From a virus (lineage: Duplodnaviria; Caudoviricetes): 64,000 bases of DNA. The position numbers and the translations under genes were made by a program. Positions within the stretch are counted from its first letter, which is position 1. The number at the start of each line of letters is the position of its first letter. Shown piece after piece: positions 38,216 to 62,752 of the stretch. The stretch lies in the IMG/VR virus record IMGVR_UViG_2941446319_000002, positions 4,485 to 68,484 of that record; one strand, 5' to 3'. The notes under the pieces are model-generated. The model saw nothing but the letters and a program-made list of their open reading frames with translations. It was not told the origin of the DNA and ran no database searches.

Positions 38216-38216
38216 C

Positions 38217-43541: not shown

Positions 43542-43543
43542 CG

Positions 43544-47078: not shown

Positions 47079-47080
47079 AT

Positions 47081-47296: not shown

Positions 47297-47448
47297 TGCA
47301 ACTCCTGACGTCGGTGACCGTGTGAGACGCCCCAAGCATCCCCCCGGATGACAGCCCCCGCATGTCCACATCCGGACACCCCTTGATCGTGCCGCCCGCC
47401 GCTTGAGGGTGCCGGCGGGCGGCACACCCTTCCACGGCGAGGAGTGAC

Positions 47449-47769
47449 GTGACCGATGCCCCATCCCCGGGCGAGCTCTCCCGCCGGATCGACCAGGTGA
47501 CCATGTCACTGACACAACTCGTCCAAAGGACCGAATACACGGCAGACCGGCGCTACGACGACCGGCGGATCAGCGAAGTCGAGGCGGACGTGGCCGAAGT
47601 GCGCCGCAGCCTGGCCGACGAAATCAAGGCGCTGCGGGCCAGCATCGAAAACGCGACAGAGAAGCGCGGCACCAACATGCGGCAGGCCATCTACACAGGC
47701 ATCCTGCCCGCCGTCTTGGTCCTGCTCGGCATCGTGGTGCAGATCTGGCTCGCCAGGCAGGGGTCGTGA
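47449..47769 (+). CDS. Coiled-coil protein with C-terminal TM (lysis cassette)
   Basis: SD gaggag; [17 protein letters not shown]. Confidence 0.75.
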
Positions 47770-48374: not shown

Positions 48375-48377
48375 CAA

Positions 48378-49079: not shown

Positions 49080-49290
49080 CGCGTTTCTGGCTGCAGTACT
49101 GGCCGTATCAGACGTGGCTGCCGCAGCATCCCGAGCCTGCCGAGGAGCTGCCCGAAGACGGGCGTATCCCGGGCCTCATCGACGAATCCAACTGACCGGC
49201 CTGGGGCCGCTCTTCCTGAGCGCGATCCCTGGTCTTGGGCGGGCTACGGCTTGCCCTTTCTCATGTCCCCCATCCTGAGGAGCATCCTCA

Positions 49291-49854
49291 ATGCGCATCA
49301 ACAAGTCCGCGACCCTGGCCGCCGCGGTCCTGACGGCCGCCGTCCTGACAAGCGGCACCCCGACGTCGGCCTCCGCAGAGATCGCGAATCTGAGTATCAC
49401 CGCGATCAACTACAACTCTTACGGCGCGGACACCGTGACGAACAACACCGAGTACGTCGAGGTCAAGAACGTCCACGCCACCGACGCGGTCAACGTCAAG
49501 GACCTGCTCGTCCAGGACGCGTGGGCGCGAGGCCGCGACAAGACCACCGGCTGCAACACCTTCCGCCTCGCCGCCGGAGTCCTGCCTGTGGCTGCTGGCG
49601 GGAACGCCGACGAGCTTCCCGCGGGCGCCGTGCTGCGACTCCACATGGGTGCGGGCACGCCGGCCATCGACCGGTGGGGCATCCGGCACGTCTACCGGGC
49701 CATGCCTGCCGTCTGCGGCTACAACAGCAACGTCTTCAACAACAGCGGGCCCAAGAACAACCGGTTCGCCGAGTGGGACCGCGTCTGGGTCACCCTCGGC
49801 AGCGACGTCGAGTTCAAGGGCTACAACTTCTCGTTCGGCTACGTCGCCCGATAG
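49291..49854 (+). CDS. Secreted lamin-tail-domain-like protein
   Basis: Signal peptide ending ASA; ITAINYNSYGAD..NTEYVEVKN..VNVKD; VFNNSG. Confidence 0.75.
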   Translation: MRINKSATLAAAVLTAAVLTSGTPTSASAEIANLSITAINYNSYGADTVTNNTEYVEVKNVHATDAVNVKDLLVQDAWARGRDKTTGCNTFRLAAGVLPVAAGGNADELPAGAVLRLHMGAGTPAIDRWGIRHVYRAMPAVCGYNSNVFNNSGPKNNRFAEWDRVWVTLGSDVEFKGYNFSFGYVAR

Positions 49855-49908
49855 CCCCCCTGTTTTCCGCCCCCACCCGAGGGGCGGCGAGTCCCTGAGG
49901 AGGGGCGC

Positions 49909-50274
49909 ATGCAGGTCAAACTGTTCGGCCGCGAGCCCGCGGTCATCCTGTACGTCATCAACGCCGTCGTGGCGTTTCTGGCCACCGTTCCGGCGGTCGG
50001 CCTCACCGCGGAATCGTCCGGCTGGGTGATGACCATCGCCAACGGCGTCGTCGCCCTGCTGGTCGCCATGCTGACCCGTCCGTTCGTCGTGTCCGCCCTG
50101 ACCGGCGCCATCTCGACGGTGTTGACCGGGCTGGCGGCGTTCGGGCTGCCGTTCACGGAGCAGCAGACGGGCGCGTTTGTGATGGTCGTGTCGGCGGTGC
50201 TCGGCCTGGTGTTGCGGGCGAACGTGTCGCCTTCGCCGGCGACGTCGGAGTATCCGCCTGGCACGCACGCTTAA
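49909..50274 (+). CDS. Holin
   Basis: KLFGREPA start, four TM helices, RANVSP end. Confidence 0.85.
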   Translation: MQVKLFGREPAVILYVINAVVAFLATVPAVGLTAESSGWVMTIANGVVALLVAMLTRPFVVSALTGAISTVLTGLAAFGLPFTEQQTGAFVMVVSAVLGLVLRANVSPSPATSEYPPGTHA

Positions 50275-50481: not shown

Positions 50482-52426
50482 CTAACTGGCCGGCGCCTCG
50501 TCGGCCTGCCAGTACGTCTCGTCCAGGTAGGAGACGACCGTCAGCCGGCCGCCGTGGTCCTCGGCGTTGTGTTGCTCGGCGGATGCGCGGGCGGCCTGGT
50601 CGCTGCGGTAGTGGCTGGCGGTCCACCTGCAGCCGCCGCACCGCCAGGCGCGGTCGTAGCGGTGCGGGTTGGCCCACACGTCGATGCCGTGCCCCCACAC
50701 CACCATCCCGGCCGGGATGGTCACGGTGGCGGCCGTCACTCGTCGTCGGGCTCCAGGCCGAGCGTGCGGGGGTTCTTCCTCCGCTCGGCTTCGGCCTCCA
50801 TCTGCGGCTTGACGCCACGGCGGAGCAGCTCTCCGAGCAGCAGGGCCTTGCTGTCCGTCTTCGTCGTGTCCTTCACGCTGTATCCCTTCGTCGGTGCCGG
50901 GGCCTTGCCGCCCCCGGAGTCCCGCCCGACGGCTGCCGGGCGGGCGCAACGTCAGCGGCTTCTGGAGACGCGGCCGAGCCGCTCCCGCCAGGCCACCTCG
51001 TCCACGTGGTCGCGGTTGGCCTCCTGGTCCCGCTCGCGGTCGGCGTCCCGCTCCTCGTCGGTCCTGTCATCGATCGGCAGTGCGTCCATGTCGCTCCTCT
51101 CGTCGGGGGCCGGTCGCCCCGGGCACCCCACCCGACGTGGGCCGGATGGAGCGCCCCGGACGGCCGGGTCAGCGGGGCGCGACAGGCCGGCGTGCGTGGT
51201 ATTCGAGGTCGAGGTCTGCGGCGGGTACGGCCCGGCGGCAGGTCGAGCACCGGAAGATGATCGGGCCCTCGTCGAGCGCGGTCGTGCAGCGCGGGCAGCG
51301 GCGGTTCACCGGGACCGCTCCCGGGCGACCGCGCGGCCGACGCGGGGCAGCTTCGCTTCCGCGTCCCGGATCCGCTTCTGGCTCGCCTGGTTGCGCGGGT
51401 CGTCCTCGCTCTCCACGTGTGGCGCGTCCCGCAGCGCGGCGGTGAGCTCGTCGCGGTCGGCCTTGTCGCCGAGCAGCTTGCGCATGCCGTTCTCCTTCTC
51501 GTCGTTTGGTGGAGCTGGCTGCTCCGGCCGTCCGCCCGACGCCCCTCATGCCGGGCGGACAACCGCAACGTCAGCGCTCCCTGCCCTCGCCCTTACGACC
51601 GGGAAGGGGCTCGCCGAGCATGGCGAGTAGCGCGGTTCCCGCTCTCTTCTGCGCGGCCACGCGAACCGGCGACCATTCCGGCCGGTGGGCGTTGTTCGCG
51701 ACTTCGGACAGGCTGTCGAGGTACTCCTGCTGCTGCTTGTTCGATGCCATGTCGTGCTCCTTTCGCGTGGAGCGCTCTGCTCCGGACACCCCGCCCGTTC
51801 AGGCGGGCGGGGATCCGCAACCTCAGCGCCGGTGTCGGCCGGACCCTTCGCAGTCGGTGCAGATGACGGCGACGAGACGGCCACGGATGGGCTGCTGGAA
51901 CCGGCCGGTCCCACCGCAGTCCCCGCACAAGCCCTGGGCGCGGGCCTCGGACGGGCCGAGGTTGCTGTTCCGCCACGCGGCCGGCCGCACTGACCCCGTC
52001 ACGCCGAACCCCGATCGGACCCCACGCCCCCGAGCGGGTCGCGGCGGCGGTCACGGGCGAGCAGCCAGATCGAGCCGATGGCCAGCACCGCCTCGCCGAG
52101 CAGCGCCAGCCCGGCCAGGGCGCGCTGGTCGGCGAGCAGCAGCCACATCGTGAGCAGCGTCCCGCCGCAGATGGCGGTGGCGAGGGCGGCGAGCTTCAGG
52201 AAGACGGCCATCAGAACGACCCCCGAGCCTTGCGGGCGGCGTCCTTGATCCGCCGCTTGGCGTCACGCTCGCCGCGCTGCCTGACAAGTTCGGCCTGGGC
52301 CTTGCGCTGCTCGTCGCGGCTGACACCGAACCCGTTCGCCGTGTGGGCGAGCTGGTTGAGGTGGTTGGTGTTGCGCGCCTGCCCCTTGGCGCGGGCCAGC
52401 TTCTCGGGGCTCATCCGGTCGAACAT
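50482..52426 (-). CDS. Array of nine micro-genes (50482-50739, 50736-50876, 50952-51089, 51169-51309, 51306-51485, 51571-51750, 51823-52002, 51999-52211, 52211-52426)
   Basis: SD motifs or coupled starts; three have CxxC motifs, one has two TMs. Confidence 0.65.
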
Positions 52427-52543
52427 GTGTACTCCTCTTAGCTGGTCGGGTGTGTGGGGAATGGGGGAGCGGATGCTCCGGGCGGCCCTCCCGAAGGGGG
52501 TGGGAGAGCACCCGCAACCACCGCTGCGAAGCGATCTTTAAGG

Positions 52544-52697
52544 GGTAGCGGCCCCGAGAGAGGTAGCGGCACCGCTACCGCAGGCCGCTACCGCCTCCAT
52601 CAGGGAAAACACGCCAAGGTAGCGGGTAGCGGGAGCCCCTCACTGACGCCTCCAGATGCCCCTCAGAGGGGTTCAGAGGGGTCCGGCCGCCGCTACC
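52544..52697. repeat. clt-like locus: seven GGTAGCGG 8-mers
   Basis: ggtagcgg at 52544, 52562, 52618, 52625; ccgctacc at 52572, 52585, 52690; directly downstream of traB-like gene. Confidence 0.7.
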
Positions 52698-54810
52698 CAC
52701 GGCCGATCTCCCGCCGCTCCACAGCGGCATCCACAGCCGTCCGCTTGCATCCCTTCAACACCTGACCAGACGCCTTCACGTTCTCCGACGGGACATCCAG
52801 ACCACGCAGCAGCGCCGACAACGACTCCGCCGTCACGTCGCCATACGCCTCCGGCCGGTGCTCCGCCAGCAACTCCGCCAGCCACTGCCACGGCAGCGCC
52901 GAACGACCCGCCGGCCACACCCGCTGAACGTCCACCAGCACATCCACCCGCGGCGTCTCCTCCCGGCCAGCCCACGGAGCAACACCGCCGCGGAGCTGCA
53001 TCGCACGAGCCAGGATCTTCTTCGCTGTCTTCTCGTCCGGGAACTGCGAGCGCACAGCGGTCGGCGAGGCGAGGCCGGTCACCATCCCCCACCCGGCGTC
53101 GATCTCCGGCCGGAAGCTCGTGCCGGTGACACCCCGCTTGTACGAGCCTGTACCGAGGATCATGTCGTTCGCGATGTGGTCCTGCACCGCGAGACACCAG
53201 CGCATGTTGACGCAGCGGGTGATGCCGGGCGGCAAGCTGTCCTTGTCCGGGATCTGCGTCGCCAGGATGAAGATGATGTTGAGCGCACGGCCGCGCTTGA
53301 TGGCCCGTTCCGCGTTCGCCGCGGCCTCCTTCGATGCGCCGAACAGCTCGTGCACCTCGTCCAGGACGACGATGACGGGGTGTAGGCCGACACCGGCGGC
53401 GGCGAGCTCAGGGGTCACCTTGCCCTCCGGCGCCTGGCCTTCCGCCCGGAACTTCTTGATCAGCTTGCCGCGCTTCTCAGCCTCCGCCAGGGCCCATGCG
53501 ATGATGCGTTCGCCGTCCTCGATGGCCTCATCGTCGACACCGCACACGTACGTGGAGCACAGGCCGGCATCGTAGAAGTCGGTGAAGTCGCCCGTCCCCT
53601 TGTACTCAGCAATCTTGAACTCGACGTACGGGTCCAACGCGCCGACCAGCGCCAACGCCCGCGCGGCGTACGACTTGCCCGAGCCGGGCATGCCGCCGAT
53701 CAGCCAGTTCCGAGCGAACAAGGGTGCGGCCACGCCACGCTGCCGCTGGTCAGCGCCGAACTCGACGGGCTCGAACACGCTCGTCCGCGCTCCGTCGGCG
53801 GCGATCGACCAGCGCGGCGGCTTCATCTTCGACGCGGGCTGGTAGCCGACCCACAAGTCCACCTGCCCGGCGTGGTCAGGGCCGACCGTCGGCCACACCT
53901 GGTCGACCGGCAGCCGCAGCGCGGAGGACAGGCCCTCGCGCGCCTCGCACACCTTGACCGCCTCAACGCCGAGCGGCAGGTTGATGCGGGCCAGCTGACC
54001 AGGCCCGTCGCGGTGAATCTGCGTCGGGAACGTGATCTTCTTCGGGTCCTTCAGGCCGCTGATGCTGAGCGCGCACAGCGCCTCACGCACCTTCTCCGCC
54101 GTCAGCCGCTCGTAGCGGGTCACCGTGACGGCAGGGCTGGTCAACGGCTTGTCGACCGGCCTGCCAGCGCGGGCCAGCCCGAACAGCACGCTGCCCCAAA
54201 GCGGCACCTGCGCCCACCAAGGCAGCGTCAACCACGCCGCTACGCCGCCACCGGCCGTCGCCACGATCGCGCCGCTGGCGAGCGGCAGCCGCGACTTGAC
54301 GTTGTCCTTGCGCTTCGCCTTCAACCGCTCATACTCGTCGACGTTTCCGCTGGCGAGCACGAGCTTTCGGGCGGGCGTGGTCTCCATGTCCCAGGTCCAT
54401 CGCCACCCCTTGGCGATGAGCCGGCCGCCGCCGACGGGCGCCCACCGCAGCGCACGCCCCACGTACACCGGAGCGCGGCTGGCCTGGAATGCGACCCGGT
54501 ATCCGGCCTGGCCTGCGGCGTAGCGGGCCGCGGCCTTGATGTCCTGCTTGGAGCGCGCCCACGCGGGCACGATGGCCTGACGTTCGACGACCGCGCGGCC
54601 GGTGATGGTGGCGAACACCTGCGGCGGCTCCGGCTCGGCGGGCAGGTCGACGGGCGGGCCAGTCAAGGTCTCTTCGACGGCGACCTCCGCGTCCTGCTCC
54701 TGCGGGAGCTCGACCTCGCGGACGGCGACGTTGCCGCGCTGCTCGCCGCTGGGCTGGTCCATGGGCTCCTCTTCGGGCGGGTTGGGGACGACGTGGAATG
54801 GCCTGGTCAC
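52693..54810 (-). CDS. traB: TraB-type FtsK/SpoIIIE conjugal DNA translocase
   Basis: TM pair, GGMPGSGKS, VVLDEVHELF, ILATQ, C-terminal wHTH (HRPEAYGDVTAESLSALLR); GTGA-coupled start. Confidence 0.88.
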   Translation of the reverse strand: MTRPFHVVPNPPEEEPMDQPSGEQRGNVAVREVELPQEQDAEVAVEETLTGPPVDLPAEPEPPQVFATITGRAVVERQAIVPAWARSKQDIKAAARYAAGQAGYRVAFQASRAPVYVGRALRWAPVGGGRLIAKGWRWTWDMETTPARKLVLASGNVDEYERLKAKRKDNVKSRLPLASGAIVATAGGGVAAWLTLPWWAQVPLWGSVLFGLARAGRPVDKPLTSPAVTVTRYERLTAEKVREALCALSISGLKDPKKITFPTQIHRDGPGQLARINLPLGVEAVKVCEAREGLSSALRLPVDQVWPTVGPDHAGQVDLWVGYQPASKMKPPRWSIAADGARTSVFEPVEFGADQRQRGVAAPLFARNWLIGGMPGSGKSYAARALALVGALDPYVEFKIAEYKGTGDFTDFYDAGLCSTYVCGVDDEAIEDGERIIAWALAEAEKRGKLIKKFRAEGQAPEGKVTPELAAAGVGLHPVIVVLDEVHELFGASKEAAANAERAIKRGRALNIIFILATQIPDKDSLPPGITRCVNMRWCLAVQDHIANDMILGTGSYKRGVTGTSFRPEIDAGWGMVTGLASPTAVRSQFPDEKTAKKILARAMQLRGGVAPWAGREETPRVDVLVDVQRVWPAGRSALPWQWLAELLAEHRPEAYGDVTAESLSALLRGLDVPSENVKASGQVLKGCKRTAVDAAVERREIGRG

Positions 54811-55106
54811 GACGCCTCCATGTGGATCGCTGACGGACTGGTCATGGCCTCGACGACGACTGCGGCGAGGGTGAGTGCGGAGCCGACGGCTGCGGCGGCA
54901 TGCCAGCAGATCCGGCAGGCGTAGACGAGGACGAGCAGGGCGGCCACGATGGCTATTCGCAGCGTGCCGAGCAGGCATCCGGCCCAGCCGGCGCGGCGGG
55001 CCCGCTCCCGGTAGTCGCTGGTAGTGCGGGCGTCGGAGGTGACTGGCCGCAGGGAGAGCAGGACGAAGAACAGCAGGACGATGGCGCCGGTCAGGAAGTT
55101 CGACAT
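54807..55106 (-). CDS. Small membrane protein (Spd-like)
   Basis: 2-3 TMs, coupled to traB. Confidence 0.65.
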   Translation of the reverse strand: MSNFLTGAIVLLFFVLLSLRPVTSDARTTSDYRERARRAGWAGCLLGTLRIAIVAALLVLVYACRICWHAAAAVGSALTLAAVVVEAMTSPSAIHMEAS

Positions 55107-55567
55107 CAGGCACCTCCGGCGATGGTCAGGGCTGCGACGAACAGGAACAGGACGTGGAAGGACTGGTCGAGCGCGTAGGCGCCGGTGCCGCACGGGGCCG
55201 TCTCCGGCGTGCCGAGCTGGTAGAAGTCGGCCTTGCCGAGACGGTCGGCCAGGCGGGCGAGCGTGCTGCGCCGGTCGGCCCAAAAGTGAGTCGCCGCGTC
55301 CACCGTCAGGCCGGCGGCCAGGTATGCGGGGTGAACGTCGAGTCCGGTCACGGTGGTGAGCGCGAGCAGGGCGGCCAGCTTGACGATGGTCAGCGCGATG
55401 ACGTGGCGGGCGCACCAGATACGGCCCGCACGTCCGGGTGCACCCTTGCCGCACGCCTGCCGGTGCGTCTGCACCCAGTGGTCACCCACCTGGTGCGCGG
55501 CGTACAGGGCGCAGAACACCGCGGCGAAGACGGCCAGCTTGGTCAGCGTGTACATGTCCACGGTCAC
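55106..55567 (-). CDS. DUF3307-like membrane protein
   Basis: AHQVGDHWVQT, ATHFWADRR, YALDQSFH. Confidence 0.8.
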   Translation of the reverse strand: MTVDMYTLTKLAVFAAVFCALYAAHQVGDHWVQTHRQACGKGAPGRAGRIWCARHVIALTIVKLAALLALTTVTGLDVHPAYLAAGLTVDAATHFWADRRSTLARLADRLGKADFYQLGTPETAPCGTGAYALDQSFHVLFLFVAALTIAGGA

Positions 55568-56826
55568 GCCTTCTTTCCAGGAAGTAGCGCCCGCCGGATC
55601 CGACCGTCCATCTCGGCCTTCCACTCGCGCGCCTTCTTGGCCCCGTACTGGGGCGAGCAGTTGCCCGCGACGGCGAGTTCGGCGCCGGTCGGGATGCGGC
55701 GCTCGACCTCGACGGATGTCTTCCAGTGACGCCACATGGCGTCGGTCGCGCGGGTTTCATCCGGGGTTTCGATCTCGGTTTCGTTCGGAGTTTCATCGCC
55801 GCCCTCCGCAGGGAGATCAACAGGGCTCTCTGCGGGCTCGGGTGAAACCTTGATCTCAACCTCGTGCGTGGTTTCGTTCTCGGTTTCGGTGCGGGTTTCG
55901 TCGGCGACCTCGTCGAGGACCGCGAGCGCCGCCGACTGCGCCCGGATGAGTGCGGCCTGCGCTGCCGTCACCTCGTCGCGGGTCCGGTCGAGCAGCACGC
56001 TCGTCTCCGCCGTCGTCTCCTCCGCCTGCACGGCGAGGATCGACGCGACGGGCGACTGCTCGCCATACCGGACGGCCCAGCGCAGCGCGGTCCAGGTCTC
56101 CGACCTCCACAGCAGCCACCGCAGCGCACTGAACTTGGGGGCGCGCGGGTCGATCAGGCCCTGCTCGCGGAGGGCTTGGCGGTGCTGGTGGCGGGAGTGC
56201 ATCGCCCACAACCACGGCGAGAGGACGGACGCGCCGCCGAACATGACGGCCTGGTCGTCGAACCGCCAGTCGGGGGCGTAGTGGTAGTAGTTCAGCGCGC
56301 CCACACCGAGCGCGATGGCGTACGAGGTGACGCGCAGCCGCATCACCGAGTCACCCTCGATCAGCGCCGTGTGCGCGTGCCAGCCCACGTAGATGGCGAT
56401 CGTCTCGATGACGGCCGCGGTAGCGATGGCCTGCAGCGGCGACCAGCCGAACCCATTCGCCTCCGTGCTGGCCGAAAAGGCGGTGACCTGGCCGACGACG
56501 GCGACGACGTTGACGCCGACGATCGCGCCGACGAGGACGAAGGCGTGCCACCACTTCTGCAGGCGGGCCTGCCAGGCGGTGACGCGCTCGCTGCGGGCGG
56601 TGGCACTGCTGGTCTTGCGGGTGCGCTTACGGTCCTGGCGGAGCTGCTCGCGTTCGGCGGCCCACTCCTCGTCGCGGCGGGCCCTGTCGCGCTTGGCCTC
56701 GTCGCGGATACGGTCGGCCTCAGCGCGGGCCGCGGCGTCGGCGGCGAGCCGCTCGGCCCGGCTGGGCCGGTGCGGTGCAGGCGGCGCGGTGGCGGTCCCG
56801 TTGACGCGCTCGTGCGTGGTGGTCAT
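55564..56826 (-). CDS. DUF2637/SpdB-like multi-TM spread protein
   Basis: Coiled coil, four TMs, DPRAPKFSALRW, C-terminal HTH PTGAELA. Confidence 0.72.
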   Translation of the reverse strand: MTTTHERVNGTATAPPAPHRPSRAERLAADAAARAEADRIRDEAKRDRARRDEEWAAEREQLRQDRKRTRKTSSATARSERVTAWQARLQKWWHAFVLVGAIVGVNVVAVVGQVTAFSASTEANGFGWSPLQAIATAAVIETIAIYVGWHAHTALIEGDSVMRLRVTSYAIALGVGALNYYHYAPDWRFDDQAVMFGGASVLSPWLWAMHSRHQHRQALREQGLIDPRAPKFSALRWLLWRSETWTALRWAVRYGEQSPVASILAVQAEETTAETSVLLDRTRDEVTAAQAALIRAQSAALAVLDEVADETRTETENETTHEVEIKVSPEPAESPVDLPAEGGDETPNETEIETPDETRATDAMWRHWKTSVEVERRIPTGAELAVAGNCSPQYGAKKAREWKAEMDGRIRRALLPGKKA

Positions 56827-57152
56827 CGCTGCACGTCTCCGTTCGGGAAGGCCCGGTCGTATCCGGCGTCGAACTGCTCGCGGGTGCGGGCCAGCGGCCA
56901 GCGGCGGCGCGGGCGGCGCTGCACGGCCGCGAGCTCGCGCACGGCGGCCGCGATGTCAGCGAGGTCACCGCGCAGGCCGGTGAGGTCCTCGTGGATCGCC
57001 AGCAGGGCGTTGCCGATGCCGGCCTGCGCGTCGCGCTGCGCGGCGGCGGCACTGTCCCAGTCGTAGGCGTTCGTGGCGCGGCGGCAGTTGCCGTCGGCCG
57101 CCTTGTCGAGGAGATCGCGGGCCTGGTCGGCGCTGGTGGGTGTGGTGGTCAT
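56823..57152 (-). CDS. Hypothetical coiled-coil protein
   Basis: SD aggag; ATGA coupled. Confidence 0.7.
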   Translation of the reverse strand: MTTTPTSADQARDLLDKAADGNCRRATNAYDWDSAAAAQRDAQAGIGNALLAIHEDLTGLRGDLADIAAAVRELAAVQRRPRRRWPLARTREQFDAGYDRAFPNGDVQR

Positions 57153-57248
57153 GGCTCCTGCTTCGTGTCTGTGGGTGGGTCGGCGTTGGTGCCCGCCCCG
57201 GGCGTTGCTCCCGGGGCGCCGGCTGGTTCCGGTCGGGCTGGGCGGGTG

Positions 57249-57548
57249 TTAGGCGTTGACGAGCGTCCGGCCGCCGCTGTTCACGACGTCCTTGAACCCG
57301 GCGCCGGGGCGGAACTTCGGCGCGTGACTCTCGGCGACGTCGACGTCCTCGCCGGTGGACGGGTTCTTCGCGGTGCGGGCGGGGCGGTGGACGCGCTCGA
57401 ACTTGCCGAACCCGATGACGACGACGTCCTCGCCGGTGGCGACGGTGTCCTGGATGGTGTTGAAGACGGCGTTGACGATCTCGGCCACGTCGGCCTTGGT
57501 CTTGCCGGTGGTGGTGGCGACGGCGGCGGCGAGCTCGGTCTTGTTCAT
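57249..57548 (-). CDS. hup: HU family DNA-binding protein
   Basis: MNKTELAAAVA, IGFGKFERVHRPARTAKNPSTGE, PKFRPGAGFK. Confidence 0.95.
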   Translation of the reverse strand: MNKTELAAAVATTTGKTKADVAEIVNAVFNTIQDTVATGEDVVVIGFGKFERVHRPARTAKNPSTGEDVDVAESHAPKFRPGAGFKDVVNSGGRTLVNA

Positions 57549-57647
57549 GTGCTTCTCCTTCGTGGTGGGAGTGGAGCGGCTCCCGTGGTGTGCTCCGAGT
57601 GCCCGTCTGGGACTCGCACCCAGAGGTCTGCTGGTCGGGCTGGTGAG

Positions 57648-58652
57648 TCAGGCCGGGGTGTTCCAGCAGTCGTCGCAGTCGCGGCACTGCCAGGTGTCGG
57701 CCAGGCGTCCGTCGTCGTCGCGGTCGTAGCCGCCGTGCATGGTGTTGGCGCTGCCGCAGCTGGGGCAGATGGGGGCGACGCCGGTCATCGCTTGCCCCGT
57801 GGCTTCGGGTCGTGCTCGTCGGTGGTTTCGGTGGGGCGGGCGGACTGCCAGCGGTTGAGCCGGTCCAGGTCGCCGGTCAGGTCCTGGGCGAGGCGCTCCA
57901 TGGCCTCCTCGTGCGGGGTCATCGCTGGCCTCCGTGGTGGTCCCTGTCGGGACAGGGGACCTTGACCAAAATCCATCGCGTGGGGTCGAACTCGACCCAG
58001 TCGAGGCTGACGGTGCCCGTGCCGTCGCAGGTCGGGCAGGGGGCCGTCACCGCTTGCTGCACTTCGTGCAGCCGGGGTGGGTGCACCCGCCGCGGTCCAT
58101 GAGGGTTCGGGTGCCGACCGGGCGGGAGGCGTTGGCCTTGAGGATCTGGTCGAGCTGCTTCTGCGTGTCCTTGATCTCGGCCGGGCTCACCGGGTCGCCG
58201 CCTTACGGTCGCGCCGGTCGGCGAGGGAAACCACGTTGGCGGGCAGGGGAGGGGCGGGCATGCCCGCCAGGGGGGCGTGGCCGGCGTGGTCGAGTTCGCT
58301 GGCGGCAACCATCGACAGTCGGGTGGCCCATTCGACCAGCTGCTGCAGCGTGGCGACGGGGACGGCGATCGTGTCGGGGGTGGTGGCGGGGATGCCCGTA
58401 GACTTGGGCATAGATCTCTCCTCCTGGGTGACGGGTTGGCGGGATCAGGCGGGGCCGGGTGGCGCAATCACCTCGGCCTCGCCGCTGTTAGAGCGAGATG
58501 TTGGTGAGGAAGACGGAGAGCTGGTTGGCCCCGGCGGTAACGCCGTGGATGACGGTGTTGACGGCGTCGGCGGCGTTGGCCGGGCGGGTAAACAGGTAGA
58601 ACCCGATGAACGCGAGGACCACGTAGAGGGCCACCTTCTTGAAGCGGTTCAT
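57648..58652 (-). CDS. Six micro-genes (57648-57788, 57785-57922, 57919-58050, 58047-58190, 58187-58411, 58488-58652)
   Basis: Coupled; Zn-ribbon motifs; last is TM peptide MNRFKKVALYVVLAFIGFYLFTRP. Confidence 0.65.
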
Positions 58653-58661
58653 GATCGTCCT

Positions 58662-58868
58662 TCACTCTCCGTCCGGCTGATAGGCGGACATCTGCGCGGT
58701 CACGTCGGACTCGCGGAACCGGTACTGACCGCCTGGAGTCCGCGTCGAGGGGAAGCGGCCGGATCGCGCCCACGCGGTGACCGTACGAGGGGCCACGTTG
58801 AACACCTCCGCAACCTCCCATCGCGTGAGAAGCCGCTCCGAGGATGGCCGCGACTGAGTTCTGGGCAC
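58662..58868 (-). CDS. BldC-family / Xis-like HTH
   Basis: 68 aa; LLTRWEVAEVFNVAPRTVTAWARSGRFPSTRTPGGQYRFRESDV; SD ggagg. Confidence 0.85.
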   Translation of the reverse strand: MPRTQSRPSSERLLTRWEVAEVFNVAPRTVTAWARSGRFPSTRTPGGQYRFRESDVTAQMSAYQPDGE

Positions 58869-58945
58869 GGCGAACTACCTCCAGGGCGTGATCAAGGGAA
58901 TCGGACTTTCAGTCGTGTCTGCGCTGCTTGAGCGGACACGTACTC

Positions 58946-58996
58946 ATGCTGTCTCTGGCAATCGCATAAGTCAAGCATTGCGCGAAAAATGCTTGA
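58946..58996 (-). promoter_or_regulatory. Leftward promoter of transfer arm with overlapping palindrome
   Basis: Minus strand TTGACT-17 bp-CAGCAT; tcaagcatt-N8-aatgcttga at 58971-58996. Confidence 0.65.
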
Positions 58997-59138
58997 GATG
59001 GCGTAGGCTCAATCAAGCCAGGTTCCGCGTTCCCGCACATCAGCCCCGTCCGACGCATCAGCTCAGGCGGGGCTGATTGCTATAACCGGCGCAACTTGCG
59101 AGCATTGATGTCGGGAATGCGAACCGGAAGGACGAGAC

Positions 59139-59339
59139 ATGCACATCGATTTCCTGTGGAAAGACGACGCCTCGGGCGGCGGCGGATGCCCCGCGCTGTA
59201 CCGCACCCCCGGCGGCTACGTCGTCCAGGGCAAGAAGCTCGACCCCGAAACCCGGGCGCAACTACGCCAACTCCTTGACGACGAGGACGGCGTGTTCGTC
59301 CCCGACAACGTCCTCGACCGCCTCAAGGACCTGGCATGA
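59139..59339 (+). CDS. Small DUF397-like protein
   Basis: WKDDASGGGGCPALY..YVVQG. Confidence 0.7.
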   Translation: MHIDFLWKDDASGGGGCPALYRTPGGYVVQGKKLDPETRAQLRQLLDDEDGVFVPDNVLDRLKDLA

Positions 59340-59881
59340 CCTCAGGTCGACCGCTCACTCCAGAGGAGTTCGGGGAGGAGATCCACCAGTTCGACCGCGA
59401 CGCCTTTCGACTCGAACTCCAAGACCAGTACCTGGAAGATGAAGAGACGAGCCTCTTCGCCGCATGGCGTCGCAGCGAACCCTTCCCGCCGACCAAGATC
59501 TACCGAGCGTGGTACGACCACATCGCCGACCACGTCCGAGCAGGCCGACACGTGCAACGGGTTCGTGTCCAGCAGGACCCGCCAACCCCCTACCAGCAGT
59601 TCGAACGCTGGCTCGACCACTGGAACGTCCAGGCCGGCGAAGACATCCGCTACCTCACACGGCAGCAGGCGCACGACATCGGCCTACTGCCATCGGCAGG
59701 CAACACCGACTGGTGGCTTCTCGACTCGAACAAGCTCATCGTCATGCACTTCGACGAGCACGGCCACCGCATCCACAACGAGCTGGTCACCGACCCGCAG
59801 GTCGTGACCCAGGCGTGCACGTGGCGGGACCTGGCAGTCCACCACAGCGTCCTGGCGACAGGCCAGAACGCGCCCGTCTGA
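59336..59881 (+). CDS. DUF6879-like protein
   Basis: AFRLELQDQY, VQRVRV..PPTPYQQF, AGEDIRYL, DWWLLD. Confidence 0.82.
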   Translation: MTSGRPLTPEEFGEEIHQFDRDAFRLELQDQYLEDEETSLFAAWRRSEPFPPTKIYRAWYDHIADHVRAGRHVQRVRVQQDPPTPYQQFERWLDHWNVQAGEDIRYLTRQQAHDIGLLPSAGNTDWWLLDSNKLIVMHFDEHGHRIHNELVTDPQVVTQACTWRDLAVHHSVLATGQNAPV

Positions 59882-59898
59882 AGCAGAAGGAAAGAACC

Positions 59899-60756
59899 GT
59901 GGAATCCCTCCAGGACTGGTTGACCCAGCCCGACGGCATCGCCACCCGCCTGCGCATGCTCCGTGCGCAGGCGGGTCTGTCCGGCAAGGCGCTGGCAGAC
60001 TCCCAAAGCTGGGCGCAATCGAAGGTGTCCCGCATTGAGAGCGGCGCGCAGATGCCAAGCCCTGCCGACATTCAGGCATGGGCGGTCGCGTGCAACGTCG
60101 GCGGCGCCGAGTTGGACGAACTACTCCGCCTTGGCGACACTGCCCGGGGTATGCGGGAGGCGTTCCGATCCCGCATGGCTCGTGGTCAGGAACATGTGCA
60201 GGCTGACCACAACGACCTCACAGCCCGATCTCACCTGATTCGATACTTCGAGACTGTGTGGGTTCCCGGGTTCCTGCAGGTGCCGGACTATACGCGTCGG
60301 GTTCTCACAGAGATGACCAGCCTGCACGATCTCCAGATCGACGACGTTGACGCAGCCCTGGCCACGCGCATGCAACGTCAGCAGATGCTCTATGACCCCA
60401 GCAAGCAGTTCGAGTTCCTGATTTGCGAGCCGGTCTTGCGCTGGCTGATATGCCCGCCCGCAGTGATGCGCGAGCAGCTCGACCGGCTCCAGAGCGTCAT
60501 CGGGCTCCCGCGCATCCGCTTCGGCATCGTCCCGATGGGCGTGGAGCTGACGACGACGCCGCAGAACAGCTTTCAGATCTATGTCGGCGCAGATGGGCCT
60601 GTAGTGGCCGTCGAAACGTTCATCACCGAGACGTTCGTCCGTGGTGACGAGGCGGAAGCCTACGAGCGTGTAATGGCCAGGCTCTGGGAGCAAGCTGCGA
60701 CCGGGGATCAGGCTCGGCGGCTCATCATCGCTGCGATAGAAGCTCTCGAACCGTAA
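59899..60756 (+). CDS. XRE HTH plus DUF5753 regulator
   Basis: WAQSKVSRIESG; VPGFLQVPDY, RMQRQ, VMREQLDRL. Confidence 0.9.
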   Translation: MESLQDWLTQPDGIATRLRMLRAQAGLSGKALADSQSWAQSKVSRIESGAQMPSPADIQAWAVACNVGGAELDELLRLGDTARGMREAFRSRMARGQEHVQADHNDLTARSHLIRYFETVWVPGFLQVPDYTRRVLTEMTSLHDLQIDDVDAALATRMQRQQMLYDPSKQFEFLICEPVLRWLICPPAVMREQLDRLQSVIGLPRIRFGIVPMGVELTTTPQNSFQIYVGADGPVVAVETFITETFVRGDEAEAYERVMARLWEQAATGDQARRLIIAAIEALEP

Positions 60757-60801
60757 GACATCAACGAGCTGGCCACGGCCAGCTGAACCGAAGGAGTCAT
60801 C

Positions 60802-61161
60802 TTGCAGGAGCCTGGCCGTACCTTCCGTGAGGCGTGGATCGCCGGCGTGCACCGGCACTTCCCGGGCGAGCCGAAGCCCGGCTACGTCACACCGTGGGAG
60901 GACACCCCGGATTGGGAACGCTCGGCCGCTGCGGCGGTGGAAGAGCAGGTGCGTGCGTTCGTCGATGCTTCAGCCGGCCGGACGGCGCGGTTGACTCGGG
61001 AGCAGCGCGGCCGGTTTGTCGCGATCTGCTGGACGGCGCAGATTTTCCGGCACTTCGACGATCCGAAGCCGTCGTACGTGGCCGACTGGGCCGACTTGCC
61101 GGAGTGGCAGAGGGAGACGGACGCCGACATCTTCGACCGCATCGAGCAGGTGCCGGTGTAG
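60802..61161 (+). CDS. Hypothetical protein with internal duplication
   Basis: PKPGYVTPWEDTPDW and PKPSYVADWADLPEW; SD aaggag, TTG start. Confidence 0.75.
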   Translation: MQEPGRTFREAWIAGVHRHFPGEPKPGYVTPWEDTPDWERSAAAAVEEQVRAFVDASAGRTARLTREQRGRFVAICWTAQIFRHFDDPKPSYVADWADLPEWQRETDADIFDRIEQVPV

Positions 61162-61163
61162 GG

Positions 61164-61334
61164 GTGAGCGGCAGCAGCGAGGCGGTGGCGGCTGCCGTCA
61201 TCGTGGACTGCGGGCGGGTACTCCTCGCCCGCCGTCGCGTTCCTGCAAGCGCATCTCGTGTAGCCCGTCCGGTCTGCCCTAAAATGTCATGGTCAATTAC
61301 AAACGGTTGCTCCCACGACGCCCGCCCTGAATAG
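61164..61334 (+). pseudogene. Truncated NUDIX hydrolase N-terminus
   Basis: VAAAVIVDCGRVLLARRR then no Nudix box; shift to AT-richer DNA. Confidence 0.5.
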
Positions 61335-61477
61335 CGGAATTAGGGCAGCCAATTCTTACCTATCAGGTATAACCTGCGGATTCGCTGGGAAAACGAGCAA
61401 ATGTCACGATCCAATAACGCGCCTTGCCCCCCGCAGGAAGTAAGCGTTAGGTGACTGGAAGGCAGGAAACAGGACGA

Positions 61478-61894
61478 GTGGGGCGTCCCAAACCCGGGCC
61501 CAAGCGGGACCCCAAACGTCAGGAGGTGGCGGCGATCAACAACGACGTTGACCGATCGGTCCAGACAGGCGAAACAGCAGCAACCAGCACCAACGAAACC
61601 ACCGGGGACGGCTTCCTGCAACGCCGCCTCGCGCGTGCCGAAGGCCTGCTCGAAGCCGCCCTTCGAGAAAACTTCCGGCTGACCTGCCAAATACGCGACC
61701 TCGAAATGGGCCAGATGCCGCCCGAAGTCGAACACGGCCTGGCCAGCCGAACCGCACGCATGCGCCCCCTCCAAGTCGTCGTCGACGGCCAACCCCTCAT
61801 CCTCGCCATCCCAGCACGAGGCATCCAAGAACCGGCCACACGCCGCCAAATGTGGCGCAGCCTCCACGAACGGTACGGAACACAGGAGCAGTAG
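61478..61894 (+). CDS. Hypothetical coiled-coil protein
   Basis: ORF after AT-rich promoter-like region; start may be 61451. Confidence 0.6.
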   Translation: MGRPKPGPKRDPKRQEVAAINNDVDRSVQTGETAATSTNETTGDGFLQRRLARAEGLLEAALRENFRLTCQIRDLEMGQMPPEVEHGLASRTARMRPLQVVVDGQPLILAIPARGIQEPATRRQMWRSLHERYGTQEQ

Positions 61895-61897
61895 AAA

Positions 61898-62752
61898 GTG
61901 CAGCGCCCCGACCGCTGGGAAATCGTAGAAATCGTAGAAGTAGAAAACCTGCTAGAAACCCTCTTCGTGCCCGCCGTCGCACGCCCAAAGAACGACGAGC
62001 ACCTCATCATCGAAGTCGACGCGTCCCTACGCGGACGGGCACGAGCCGAAGCGATCAGCACCGTCCACAAGTCGGCCAAACACCGCCGCCACAGGGAAGC
62101 CCTGCTACCCATCCCCATCCTGGTCGGCGCCTGGGAGGCGGTACGCGCCTCCCAGCGGGGTGCGGTAGCCTCCGCCGCTGTCGCAGCCACCGTCGCAGCC
62201 GGGGCGCTCAGCCTCGCCGTCATCGAGCGGAACCCTCCACCGCTCGCCCAGCCCAGGGCGACGGCGGTCAGCACCGCGACCACGTCCCTCGCCACACCAC
62301 CAGCCGCGACACCGACCACCACCCGACCAACCACACAGCCCACCCCCACCAGAGCGAAGCCGACCACCCGGCAGGCCCGCAGTGAGGAACCGCCACCCGC
62401 CCGCACCACGCCCACCAGACAGCCCCAAAAGACAACGCAGCCAGAACCAGAACTGACCCGGCAGCCGGACCACCCCGACAAGCCCACCCCCACCCGCAGC
62501 CGCGCTTCAACCCCGCCCCGCACCCGGTCGGCGAGCCTGGCCCGGCAGCCGACAGCCGCAAAGGCAGCGGAGGAGGAGGGAAACGAACCGCTGCCCACGG
62601 TTGTCGTGCGGCCTACAGTGGACGTGCCGGCGACCATCCCGGCGCCGGTCCCGCAACTCGAACCGACAGCGGGACTGGAGCTGTCAACCGGCGGGCGGAA
62701 CTGCCGGCTGGTCGAGGTCGAGGTCGGCGAACTCGTTCGCGTCTGCCTGTAG
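61898..62752 (+). CDS. Single-TM protein with Pro/Thr-rich stalk
   Basis: AVASAAVAATVAAGALSLAVI; TP-rich; C-terminal Cys pair. Confidence 0.65.
   Translation: MQRPDRWEIVEIVEVENLLETLFVPAVARPKNDEHLIIEVDASLRGRARAEAISTVHKSAKHRRHREALLPIPILVGAWEAVRASQRGAVASAAVAATVAAGALSLAVIERNPPPLAQPRATAVSTATTSLATPPAATPTTTRPTTQPTPTRAKPTTRQARSEEPPPARTTPTRQPQKTTQPEPELTRQPDHPDKPTPTRSRASTPPRTRSASLARQPTAAKAAEEEGNEPLPTVVVRPTVDVPATIPAPVPQLEPTAGLELSTGGRNCRLVEVEVGELVRVCL

What the first reader, a model, noticed from the sequence alone, without database searches (positions are those of the whole stretch)
50482..61334. Candidate conjugative prophage: TraB/Spd transfer arm inside a complete siphophage genome
Seen: between holin and integrase lies a leftward operon with a TraB-type FtsK ATPase (wHTH C-terminus), three coupled membrane proteins, adjacent 8-mer repeats, HU and a BldC-like HTH, with its own promoter and divergent regulators. 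I found no RepSA/RepAM-type initiator, second integrase or internal att. Established: actinomycete plasmids and AICEs transfer dsDNA using TraB plus a clt site, and Spd proteins promote intramycelial spread. Inference: the excised phage circle, replicated by its own primase/origin, could move between hyphae without lysis, giving virion and conjugal routes under separate switches. Plasmid-phage hybrids are known in Streptomyces; an integrating version looks much less described.
Basis: partly seen in the sequence, partly recalled or inferred. Interest (0 to 1): 0.88.

Follow-up and report, generated by a model that had tools for sequence, protein, structure and literature searches.

The report
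Integrated phage carrying TraB DNA-transfer module
A complete-looking tailed prophage sitting in a tRNA gene of a filamentous soil actinomycete also carries the plasmid-type DNA pump and its docking repeats, so it may pass between hyphae without virus particles, a hybrid with published plasmid-phage precedents but little described in integrated form.

Summary
One 62.3-kb element is bounded by an exact 48-bp repeat of the tRNA-Pro(CGG) 3' end (window 1791-1838 and 64080-64127, just past the window). It has a single tyrosine integrase and no internal att copy. It holds a siphophage set (TerL, portal, protease, capsid, tape measure, endolysin, holin). Between holin and integrase lies a leftward operon: HTH_17, HU, three coupled membrane proteins, a 705-aa TraB-type FtsK ATPase, then 7 exact GGTAGCGG repeats at the traB stop.

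The arm is not a one-off. TraB sits antisense after the late operon in five further prophages. Two share this capsid lineage. Three have different head and tail families, and their TraB is 58-65% identical. Each has its own repeat cluster at the traB stop. Five sibling prophages lack TraB, so the module is an exchangeable cassette. A circular 41.9-kb Pseudonocardia record has the same layout. PhiNon1, a published integrating plasmid-phage of Nonomuraea, shares the integrase and replication genes.

No transfer is shown. Conjugative plasmid-phages (pZL12) are published, and this scan noted TraB-bearing prophages in at least eight other genomes. Verdict: real, probably functional, and a new variant of a known kind.

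The parts
1791..1838 (.). attL: 48-bp exact copy of the tRNA-Pro(CGG) 3' end. Its partner attR lies at window-equivalent 64080-64127, inside the intact tRNA (64080-64154, complement), just beyond the window.
   Evidence: k-mer and blastn-short on the window plus 20 kb each side; aragorn. No third copy was found; the next best match is 16 nt.
1939..1954 (.). 16-bp GGGTGACGCACGATCA repeat inside the left end. The same 16-mer lies inside the right end at window-equivalent 64015-64030. Candidate integrase arm-type sites flanking the core in attP.
   Evidence: The role is inferred.
2055..3332 (.). Left-end switch region: 200-aa leftward ORF (2055-2657, no family hit), Cro-like HTH_3 (2887-3108, +), HTH_17 Xis-like (3108-3332, +).
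10520..18985 (+). Early/replication genes: DUF5131 (10520-11674), RuvC-like resolvase (11671-12240), DnaN sliding clamp (14163-15362), DUF3987 primase-helicase (16157-18985).
28961..50274 (+). Late operon: TerL 28961-30583, portal 30580-32679, protease 32689-33930, major capsid 34336-35262, tape measure 38945-42364, minor tail 43544-46300, endolysin 48378-49079, holin 49909-50274.
   Evidence: PHROG E-values 1e-18 to 1e-128. The capsid is 45% identical to Gordonia phage capsids.
50379..50406 (+). Hairpin terminator (12-bp stem, 10 G-C pairs) between the late operon and the convergent arm.
50482..52426 (-). Tail of the leftward arm: about 9 small ORFs, including one 2-TM protein (51999-52211) and Cys-rich zinc-finger-like ORFs. 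No family hits.
   Evidence: GC3 frame analysis and translations.
52544..52697 (.). clt-like cluster: 7 exact GGTAGCGG (4 forward, 3 reverse). The last copy overlaps the traB stop.
   Evidence: 0 of 433 other 270-bp windows reach 7 copies of any 8-mer.
52693..54810 (-). TraB-type FtsK/SpoIIIE-like dsDNA translocase, 705 aa. It has Walker A GMPGSGKS, Walker B VVLDE, a hydrophobic hairpin at about 175-215 and a C-terminal winged helix at about 624-702.
54807..57152 (-). Coupled genes upstream of traB: 99-aa 3-TM protein (54807-55106), DUF3307 membrane protein (55106-55558, phrog_2470), 420-aa membrane protein (55564-56826, phrog_10376), 109-aa soluble protein (56823-57152).
57249..57548 (-). HU-type DNA-binding protein.
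   Evidence: PF00216, 3.2e-29.
57648..58868 (-). Head of the leftward operon: 68-aa HTH_17/MerR-type protein (58662-58868) followed by small ORFs (58488-58652, 58187-58411, 58047-58190, 57648-57788).
59139..61161 (+). Divergent rightward genes: 66-aa ORF, DUF6879 (59336-59881), HTH_31+DUF5753 regulator (about 59884-60756), 119-aa ORF (60802-61161, 77% identical in TraB-less sibling G014).
61340..62752 (.). 175-aa leftward ORF (61340-61867) and 284-aa rightward ORF (61898-62752) just before int. No family hit.
62771..64000 (+). Tyrosine integrase (430 aa; ends at window-equivalent 64062). It is the only recombinase found in the element.
   Evidence: It is 76% identical in G014, 69% in G093 and 51.8% in PhiNon1.

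Best explanation
The region is the accessory arm of one temperate siphophage genome of about 62.3 kb (window 1839 to window-equivalent 64127), integrated by its own tyrosine integrase into tRNA-Pro(CGG). The arm encodes a Streptomyces-plasmid-type dsDNA transfer module. Its parts are a membrane-anchored FtsK-like hexameric pump (TraB), whose C-terminal winged helix reads the 8-bp GGTAGCGG repeats placed at the end of its own gene (a clt), plus coupled membrane proteins in the position of Spd spread proteins, and HU.

Proposed working: after excision, the circular phage genome is replicated by the phage's own DnaN and primase-helicase. TraB loads on the clt repeats and pumps the double-stranded circle across hyphal walls or septa. 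This gives a particle-free route into neighbouring compartments or mating hyphae, alongside the virion route.

Shown: the anatomy, the single att pair, the single integrase, the fold, the repeats, and recurrence in other prophages. Inferred: TraB-repeat binding, excision and replication as a circle, and any transfer. The module is an exchangeable cassette in this phage group, not a fixed backbone gene.
For: (1) One unit. An exact 48-bp att pair was found with no third copy. A 16-bp repeat lies inside both ends. There is one tyrosine recombinase and no serine recombinase in the element. No Prim-Pol was found.

(2) The integrase belongs to the phage backbone. Int and the 119-aa gene are 76-77% identical in sibling prophage G014, which has no TraB. 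PhiNon1 shares int (51.8%), the primase-helicase (66%) and the 686-aa protein (71%).

(3) TraB identity. It hits phrog_1358 FtsK/SpoIIIE at 4.6e-23. By tblastn it matches pSVH1 (28.6%, 5e-19) and pSG5 (27.4%, 2e-18) among 28 actinomycete plasmid records. Many homologues carry PF01580. The AF2 model has pLDDT 78, and its best Foldseek hits are FtsK motor domains (6t8o, E 7e-15, TMt 0.66), then the conjugation coupling protein TcpA. The C-terminal 95 aa fold as alpha-beta-alpha-alpha-beta-beta with pLDDT 83, and the nearest folds are all winged helices.

(4) clt. Seven exact GGTAGCGG lie in 154 bp overlapping the traB stop. This is the layout published for the pWTY27 clt, 16 bp inside traA plus 159 bp with repeats (PMC3583192, passages read).

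(5) Recurrence. TraB lies antisense directly after the late operon in G001 and G115, which share the capsid lineage (TraB only 25% identical to the window's in both; 36% between those two). It also does so in G027, G134 and G135 (TraB 58-65% identical), whose portal, capsid, TerL and tape-measure proteins belong to different PHROG families.

(6) Each has its own repeat cluster at the traB stop. G134 and G135 have GGTAGCGG x5. G027 has GGTCGCGG x5, together with changes in the predicted recognition helix. G115 has CTAGACC x6. G001 has imperfect CAAGGACT-like repeats.

(7) att repeats enclose phage plus TraB in G115 (45 bp, tRNA-Ala, 63.5 kb) and G135 (44 bp, 45.5 kb).

(8) The circular 41.9-kb record pPaSha2 carries terminase to holin, then antisense FtsK (37.7% identical), DUF2637 and an integrase.

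(9) Precedent. [quoted passage not shown] PhiNon1 exists both integrated and as a circle at copy number 17 (PMC5431353).
Against: No experiment or read data here show excision, circular replication, expression or transfer.

Pfam on TraB itself gives only AAA at 19.5 bits, below its cut-off. phmmer against PDB sequences found nothing.

The winged-helix fold matches are weak (best E 0.019, TM about 0.45-0.5). The N-terminal membrane anchor is only moderately hydrophobic (peak 1.40).

The membrane proteins have no demonstrated relation to Spd proteins. The 420-aa protein shows no similarity to the DUF2637 protein of G001.

5 of 7 assessable same-capsid siblings (G014, G076, G082, G093, G077) have no TraB. 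The module is therefore dispensable for the phage.

No match to this TraB was found in 50,697 deposited phage genomes, so no isolated virion is known to package such an arm.

The repeat clusters of G001 and G115 are not exceptional as exact 8-mers (28 of 269 and 89 of 877 control windows reach the same count).

The covariation of recognition helix and repeat rests on one change (G027).
Confidence: 0.6

Rival explanations
1. The pump serves the phage inside one mycelium rather than mating. TraB plus the membrane proteins would move or partition the excised or replicating prophage across septa into neighbouring compartments and spores (spread or segregation), or would act on incoming DNA (exclusion). 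There would be no donor-to-recipient transfer.
For: The evidence is the same anatomy as above. Hyphal compartmentation makes intramycelial spread useful to a lysogen. PhiNon1, a relative, is kept as a multicopy circle and carries an SsgA-like gene (PMC5431353). FtsK-like genes of unknown role are reported in lytic Streptomyces phages too (PMC13587820 and PMC11536984, passages read).
Against: For Streptomyces plasmids, TraB plus clt is the unit that suffices for intermycelial transfer (pWTY27, pIJ101; PMC3583192). The nearest non-phage relatives of this TraB (43-46% identity) sit in AICE-like islands next to tRNA genes. Sequence-specific repeats fit a pump that recognises its own element, but they do not separate spread from mating.
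Confidence: 0.25
2. The arm is a passenger: an AICE or plasmid fragment that landed in, or fused with, a prophage (accretion with loss of the inner att). It no longer moves anything, and the element is just a phage with cargo.
For: The arm is cassette-like. It is absent from 5 of 7 siblings and is replaced in G014 by an unrelated 11-kb leftward operon. TraBs of same-capsid siblings are only 25-36% identical to one another, so they were acquired separately. More distant TraB relatives are AICE-borne. Phage-ICE tandems formed by accretion are described in Streptococcus (PMC13651849, abstract seen in listing).
Against: There is no inner att remnant, second integrase or AICE-type Rep. All arm ORFs are open. 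The 7 repeats are exact. Walker motifs and 100+ invariant columns are kept across 31 homologues. The same position and orientation recur in six elements with four different virion modules, each with matching repeats. That pattern argues for selection rather than decay.
Confidence: 0.12

Closest known systems
pZL12 / phiZL12, Streptomyces plasmid-phage (Zhong et al. 2010, J Bacteriol 192:3747). Known to me only through citations in PMC3583192, PMC4487206 and PMC5431353; the paper itself is not held.
   Same: One replicon holds a tailed-phage virion module and a Streptomyces-type tra gene. [quoted passage not shown]
   Different: pZL12 is a 90-kb extrachromosomal plasmid prophage with ParA/ParB (PMC4487206). 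The element here is integrated in a tRNA gene by a tyrosine integrase, and no par genes were seen among the 40 ORFs scanned with Pfam. I made no sequence comparison with pZL12.
PhiNon1 of Nonomuraea gerenzanensis (NZ_LT559120.1, 59,257 bp; PMC5431353).
   Same: It shares a related integrase (51.8%), primase-helicase (66%), 686-aa protein (71%) and DnaN. It integrates at a tRNA 3' end. It has an arm on the strand opposite to the virion genes, with a DUF2637 protein and a 654-aa P-loop protein that matches the TraB profile (hhalign 81.6%, E 1.1e-5). It is published as both integrated and circular, at copy number 17.
   Different: It has different virion genes (no capsid match) and integrates at tRNA-Val instead of tRNA-Pro. 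Its TraB-like protein is very distant. The paper's main text holds no occurrence of TraB, FtsK or SpoIIIE; its 3 occurrences each of 'transfer' and 'conjugati' refer to the E. coli intergeneric gene-transfer system (methods) and to tRNAscan-SE in the reference list, not to transfer of PhiNon1. Supplements were closed. I saw no clear repeat cluster after that gene.
TraB-clt(-Spd) transfer system of Streptomyces plasmids and AICEs (pSVH1 TraB, pWTY27 TraA/clt, pSAM2-type AICEs; PMC3583192, PMC2440964, PMC3218068).
   Same: An FtsK-like pump with a winged-helix C-terminus, and short direct or inverted repeats at the 3' end of the tra gene. It shows weak but significant sequence similarity to pSVH1 and pSG5 TraB. 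Integration is at a tRNA, with int at one end.
   Different: The carrier here is a 62-kb phage genome with virion and lysis genes. It has no RepSA/RepAM/Prim-Pol type initiator and no GntR Kor-type repressor next to traB in this element (G001 has one). The upstream membrane proteins are not recognisable Spd homologues.
pPaSha2 of Pseudonocardia alni (CP052773.1, 41,938 bp circular 'plasmid').
   Same: It has the same layout: terminase, portal, protease, capsid, tail genes and holin, then antisense FtsK (37.7% identical, 93% coverage), DUF2637, small genes, integrase and an HTH regulator. GTAGCG-core repeats lie nearby (4 in 120 bp against a maximum of 2 elsewhere).
   Different: It is from another order, is deposited as a free circle and is smaller. 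It is an annotated record only; I found no paper on it.
Conjugative prophage Phi1207.3 and phage-ICE tandems of Streptococcus (PMC4260502, PMC13651849; abstracts seen in the listing).
   Same: Phage genomes that also move by cell contact.
   Different: They are in Firmicutes, use ssDNA/T4SS-type or unknown machinery, and form tandems by accretion of two elements rather than one element with a single-protein dsDNA pump.

Membership tests
Streptomyces-type TraB conjugative dsDNA translocase | FtsK/SpoIIIE-like motor domain with Walker A and B | tested here: met
   Motifs were read. phrog_1358 hits at 4.6e-23. Foldseek's top hits are FtsK motor domains (E 7e-15, TMt 0.61-0.68). Many homologues carry PF01580. 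Pfam on the protein itself gives only sub-threshold AAA.
Streptomyces-type TraB conjugative dsDNA translocase | Sequence homology to experimentally studied TraB (pSVH1, pSG5) | tested here: met
   tblastn gives NC_007431.1 at 28.6% and 5e-19, and NC_008792.1 at 27.4% and 2e-18, over 57-62% of the query. That these records are pSVH1 and pSG5 is my recall from size and host.
Streptomyces-type TraB conjugative dsDNA translocase | [quoted passage not shown] | tested here: inconclusive
   The AF2 topology is H-E-H-H-H-E-E-H at 624-702 with high pLDDT. The nearest PDB folds are all winged helices (PadR, forkhead, Cdt1), but the best E is 0.019.
Streptomyces-type TraB conjugative dsDNA translocase | Cognate short repeats (clt/TRS) beside the gene | tested here: met
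   Seven exact GGTAGCGG lie in 154 bp overlapping the stop. Related or element-specific clusters occur at the same place in 5 other elements. Binding was not tested.
Streptomyces-type TraB conjugative dsDNA translocase | N-terminal membrane anchor | tested here: inconclusive
   There is a hydrophobic hairpin at about 175-215. The Kyte-Doolittle peak is 1.40, below my 1.5 cut-off. AF2 predicts helices there.
Streptomyces-type TraB conjugative dsDNA translocase | Hexameric ring, pore formation, DNA transfer | not testable with these tools
   Needs biochemistry and matings.
AICE (actinomycete integrative and conjugative element) | Int + Tra + Rep (RepSA, RepAM/DUF3631 or Prim-Pol), as in Ghinet et al. 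2011 (PMC3218068) | tested here: not met
   Int and Tra are present. No DUF3631 (though the control rang nowhere) and no Prim-Pol lie in the element. RepSA has no public model and was not tested. Replication genes are phage-type (DnaN, DUF3987).
AICE (actinomycete integrative and conjugative element) | Small element (about 9-24 kb) without virion genes | tested here: not met
   The element is 62.3 kb and has TerL, portal, capsid, tape measure and lysis genes.
Temperate tailed phage (HK97-type siphophage) | TerL, portal, protease, major capsid, tape measure, lysis genes, integrase and att | tested here: met
   Completeness and inducibility were not tested.
Conjugative plasmid-phage (pZL12/pFP4 type) | Virion module plus tra gene in one replicon | tested here: met
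Conjugative plasmid-phage (pZL12/pFP4 type) | Extrachromosomal maintenance with partition genes | tested here: not met
   The element is integrated between att repeats. There is no ParA/ParB among the 40 window ORFs scanned with Pfam, but not all ORFs were scanned.
Spd spread proteins | Membrane proteins co-transcribed with traB and needed for intramycelial spread | tested here: inconclusive
   Three coupled membrane proteins lie upstream of traB. Their families are DUF3307/phrog_2470 and phrog_10376. No Spd model is available, and the 420-aa protein is unrelated to G001's DUF2637 protein.

The most novel reading that the evidence does not exclude
TraB-clt cassettes are a widespread, exchangeable 'second transmission route' of temperate phages of mycelial actinomycetes. 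Each cassette would pair a pump whose winged helix is matched to its own repeats, slotted antisense after the lysis genes of unrelated virion types. It would let the excised phage genome travel through hyphae and between mating mycelia without killing the donor. Phage and AICE would then be two ends of one continuum rather than separate kinds.
Probability: 0.4. Interest if true: 0.75.

Novelty: new variant of a known kind. Interest (0 to 1): 0.55.

Why it matters
If the pump works, a temperate phage of a filamentous actinomycete has two ways to spread: virions, and particle-free dsDNA transfer through hyphal contacts. That would change how host range, lysogen spread in a mycelium and gene flow in antibiotic-producing soil bacteria are modelled. 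It would blur the line between prophages and AICEs in genome annotation, because tools that call 'Int + Tra' an AICE would mislabel these elements.

The matched pairs of recognition helix and 8-bp repeat across elements give a ready test set for how TraB proteins read DNA. The element is testable with ordinary genetics in a non-pathogenic soil organism.

Tried and rejected
Tandem or nested AICE: I looked for a third att copy, a second tyrosine recombinase, a serine recombinase, DUF3631 and Prim-Pol. None lies in the element. The DUF3631 search rang nowhere, controls included, so it is weak.

TraB in deposited phage genomes: tblastn found no match in 50,697 records.

PDB by sequence: no hit.

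First TraB HMM: one seed (G115) was by mistake the antisense ORF. The result (hits only in G000, G001 and G115 among 8 regions) agrees with the tblastn. I rebuilt the HMM correctly but used it only on three PhiNon1 proteins (no hit).

Survey of 20 further TraB 3' flanks. Of the 11 loci with 43-46% identical TraB, 8 have a tRNA 4-9 kb from traB after 3-4 co-directional genes (AICE-like), 2 have a tRNA farther off, and 1 stretch is only 5 kb. Of 10 large ORFs from six loci with 40-44% identical TraB, only one (L053, 594 aa) gave weak tape-measure hits; the others gave none or non-structural hits. That group is unresolved. I left out of the fetch G056 and G042 (unpublished), three short flanks, and all hits below the top 22.

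G009's related prophage contig (11.8 kb) ends before the arm, so it is not assessable.

The promoter scan found nothing.

Sequencing runs: no RNA holder listed. The only full holder is kept as contigs and may be the source assembly. I did not lay reads, because contigs cannot show depth or excision.

The primers published for PhiNon1 are not in the N. gerenzanensis chromosomal TraB locus, which looks like an AICE beside tRNA-Ile.

A PhiNon1 clt search found no repeat cluster.

Literature: searches found no paper describing TraB-type modules in integrated actinomycete prophages. One search (prophage + AICE + FtsK + capsid) returned 0 papers. Subscription papers (Zhong 2010 on pZL12; pFP4) are not held, and supplements are closed, so PhiNon1's gene table could not be seen.

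Unpublished genomes G056 and G042 appear only in the tallies (31 of 61).


Full report
WHAT IS THERE. The window is a high-GC actinomycete stretch (G000:C4, minus strand). Homologue names and the best database hits point to Nonomuraea and its relatives. A GC3 frame analysis and family scans give the following map.

Left end: a 200-aa leftward ORF, a Cro-like HTH_3 protein and an HTH_17 protein at 2055-3332. Early and replication genes follow: DUF5131, a RuvC-like resolvase, a DnaN clamp and a 942-aa DUF3987 primase-helicase. The late operon runs from TerL (28961) through portal, protease, major capsid, tape measure, minor tail and endolysin to the holin (49909-50274). The capsid is 45% identical to capsids of isolated Gordonia siphophages. 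A 12-bp-stem hairpin at 50379-50406 closes the late operon.

THE ARM. From 58868 leftward lie these genes:
- a 68-aa HTH_17/MerR-type protein;
- four small ORFs;
- HU (PF00216, 3.2e-29);
- a 109-aa soluble protein;
- a 420-aa membrane protein (phrog_10376);
- a DUF3307 membrane protein (phrog_2470);
- a 99-aa three-helix membrane protein that the first gene list missed;
- TraB.

The last four overlap start to stop. TraB begins at GTG 54810 behind a GGAGG, giving 705 aa. The 806-aa ORF start is an arginine-rich out-of-phase extension. After the traB stop come the repeats, then about nine small ORFs down to 50482. One is a two-helix membrane protein and some have Cys-rich zinc-finger-like motifs. 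To the right of the arm, diverging from it, are a 66-aa ORF, DUF6879, an HTH_31+DUF5753 regulator, three ORFs without family, and the tyrosine integrase.

ONE ELEMENT OR TWO. It does. The same 48 bases lie at window-equivalent 64080-64127, about 20 bp after the integrase stop, inside an intact tRNA-Pro(CGG). In the window plus 20 kb on each side there is no third copy; the next best match is 16 nt. A 16-bp sequence (GGGTGACGCACGATCA) lies just inside both ends, where integrase arm sites would flank the core in attP.

Whole-genome family searches place one tyrosine recombinase, no serine recombinase, no DUF3631 and no Prim-Pol inside the element. The DUF3631 search is weak because nothing rang anywhere. 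The 62.3 kb therefore behave as one integrase unit.

The integrase also belongs to the phage backbone. Sibling prophage G014 has no TraB anywhere on that contig, yet it has the same holin (80%), the 119-aa gene (77%) and the integrase (76%). G093 has the integrase at 69%.

IS THE ATPase A TraB. Pfam on the protein gives only a sub-threshold AAA hit, and NCBIfam gives only faint EccC. Other evidence is stronger:
- The PHROG FtsK/SpoIIIE family hits at 4.6e-23.
- tblastn finds 28 actinomycete plasmid records, including the 12.6-kb S. venezuelae and 12.2-kb S. viridosporus plasmids that I recall as pSVH1 and pSG5 (28.6% and 27.4%, E 5e-19 and 2e-18).
- Hundreds of homologues in Streptosporangiales and Micromonosporales are named FtsK/SpoIIIE, many with PF01580.
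- An AlphaFold model from 31 homologues (pLDDT 78) is closest to FtsK motor domains (E 7e-15). The next hits are the pCW3 coupling protein TcpA and then EccC.
- The last 95 residues fold with pLDDT 83 as a helix-strand-helix-helix-hairpin unit. Its nearest PDB folds are all winged helices, though weakly (E 0.019).
- A hydrophobic hairpin at 175-215 is a plausible but unproven anchor.

THE REPEATS. I confirmed it: 13 copies in the window against 2.15 expected, and 0 of 100 shuffles reach 13. Seven copies lie in 52544-52697, four forward and three reverse, with the last across the traB stop. No other 270-bp window of the 40 kb tested holds 7 copies of any 8-mer (0 of 433). This is the published geometry of a clt. 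In pWTY27, 16 bp inside traA plus 159 bp with direct and inverted repeats are needed for transfer and are bound by TraA. pSVH1 TraB reads 8-bp motifs through helix 3 of its winged helix (PMC3583192, passages read).

DO RELATIVES CARRY IT. In the 110 genomes held for the genus, 9 have this capsid lineage. Of the 8 others, G009's contig is too short to assess. Of the 7 assessable:
- G001 (capsid 94% identical) has, after its lysis genes and antisense, a 690-aa PF01580 protein with a DUF2637 membrane protein upstream and a small GntR regulator diverging from it.
- G115 (capsid 73%) has a 675-aa TraB, a partial homologue of the 420-aa protein and an HTH_17 homologue.
- G014, G076, G082, G093 and G077 have none. 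G014 carries an unrelated 11-kb leftward operon in that slot.

The two sibling TraBs are each only 25% identical to the window's, and 36% to each other. The cassette has therefore been swapped rather than inherited.

Conversely, I examined the three closest TraB relatives: G027 at 58-61%, and G134 and G135 at 63-65% (the latter two were the only loci returned by the genome-contig scan). All three lie antisense directly after long co-directional arrays. 8 of 10 large proteins tested from those arrays are TerL, portal, capsid or tape-measure proteins, of PHROG families different from the window's and from each other. More distant TraBs (43-46%) look AICE-borne. The 40-44% group is unresolved.

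MATCHED REPEATS. Each TraB-bearing prophage has a repeat cluster at the traB stop:
- G134 and G135 have GGTAGCGG x5 at identical offsets.
- G027 has GGTCGCGG x5.
- G115 has CTAGACC x6.
- G001 has looser CAAGGACT-type repeats.

As exact 8-mers, the clusters of G134, G135 and G027 are rare against their own 50-82 kb: 8 of 900, 1 of 900 and 2 of 548 control windows reach the same count. Those of G001 and G115 are not rare.

In the alignment of the four close C-termini, the predicted recognition helix reads AESLSALLRG or AESISALLRG where the repeat is GGTAGCGG. It reads AETISARLRR in G027, where the repeat has C for A. This is a single suggestive co-change.

BOUNDARIES ELSEWHERE. A 45-bp repeat of a tRNA-Ala 3' end encloses 63.5 kb in G115, and a 44-bp repeat encloses 45.5 kb in G135. 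Both spans hold virion genes and TraB. In G134, G135 and G027 the tyrosine integrase sits at the far (early) end, so TraB is next to the other att.

A Pseudonocardia 'plasmid' of 41.9 kb (pPaSha2) is a circular copy of the same plan: terminase to holin, then antisense FtsK (37.7% identical), DUF2637, small genes, integrase and an HTH regulator. At least one such genome therefore exists as a free circle that contains the arm.

PUBLISHED NEIGHBOURS. The integrase's best hit in the plasmid collection is NZ_LT559120.1 (51.8%). At 59,257 bp from N. gerenzanensis, this is PhiNon1 of PMC5431353, a 'plasmid-phage element' found both integrated at tRNA-Val and as a circle at copy number 17. It shares the primase-helicase (66%), the 686-aa protein (71%) and DnaN with the window, but not the virion genes. 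On the strand opposite to its virion genes it has SsgA, a DUF2637 protein and a 654-aa protein with N-terminal hydrophobic helices and Walker motifs. That protein matches the TraB profile at 81.6% probability. The paper's main text never mentions TraB, FtsK or SpoIIIE, and where it mentions transfer or conjugation it means the E. coli gene-transfer system used in its methods, not PhiNon1.

[quoted passage not shown] I could not read that paper.

This scan's own notes list TraB modules in prophages or plasmid-phages of at least eight other genomes, with pZL12 and pFP4 as precedents. I did not test those notes.

READING. The anatomy is that of a temperate phage that carries a plasmid-type dsDNA transfer cassette as an optional but selected module. 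Several observations argue that the cassette is functional: the repeats are exact, they stay paired with each pump across elements, the ORFs are intact, and the position is constant in unrelated virion backgrounds. Nothing here shows what it moves or where. Mating transfer, spread within the mycelium and partition into spores are all open. I give the transfer-or-spread reading 0.6 for donor-to-recipient capability, with spread-only as the main rival.

Against the literature I could search, the integrated, tRNA-targeting form and its recurrence with matched repeats are not described. The kind itself (phage plus TraB) is known. I therefore class it as a new variant of a known kind, of moderate interest.

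Noticed in passing
L056 (NZ_LT559120.1, PhiNon1) 43341-49075: The published plasmid-phage PhiNon1 has a DUF2637 gene and a 654-aa hypothetical protein with hydrophobic N-terminal helices and Walker A/B motifs. That protein matches the TraB profile (hhalign 81.6%, E 1.1e-5). The paper's main text does not mention a transfer gene.
   Followed up: partly
L004 (G014:C1:1250001-1270000) 567-11640: In the TraB-less sibling prophage, the slot between holin and integrase holds an 11-kb leftward operon (proteins of 484, 288, 143, 642, 360 and 237 aa and others) with almost no family hits. The function is unknown; it could be defence or another transfer system.
   Followed up: partly
L023/L024/L005 and L057, just 3' of traB: A small conserved ORF follows traB or the repeats in G134, G135, G027 and pPaSha2. 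It encodes one hydrophobic helix followed by a Cys-rich (CxxC...CxxC-like) tail. It is not present in that form in the window.
   Followed up: no
window 490-1389 (-): A YobI-like P-loop NTPase (PF20693, 3.2e-43) lies in lower-GC DNA just outside attL. It may belong to a neighbouring island.
   Followed up: no
window 24036-25202 and 26641-28749: Two LamG-like (PF13385) proteins lie upstream of TerL, the second at 702 aa. Homologues are present in siblings G001, G014 and G009.
   Followed up: no
G093:C3, about 24.2-25.0 kb downstream of its capsid gene (within L018/L019): A dense cluster of GAGTTCCC/CGAGTTCC 8-mers (4-5 per 300 bp over about 750 bp) appeared in the repeat scan. Its nature was not examined.
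   Followed up: no
L008 (G001:C27) 13552-14229 (-): A secreted-type staphylococcal nuclease with an Excalibur domain is encoded at the end of the G001 prophage arm.
   Followed up: no
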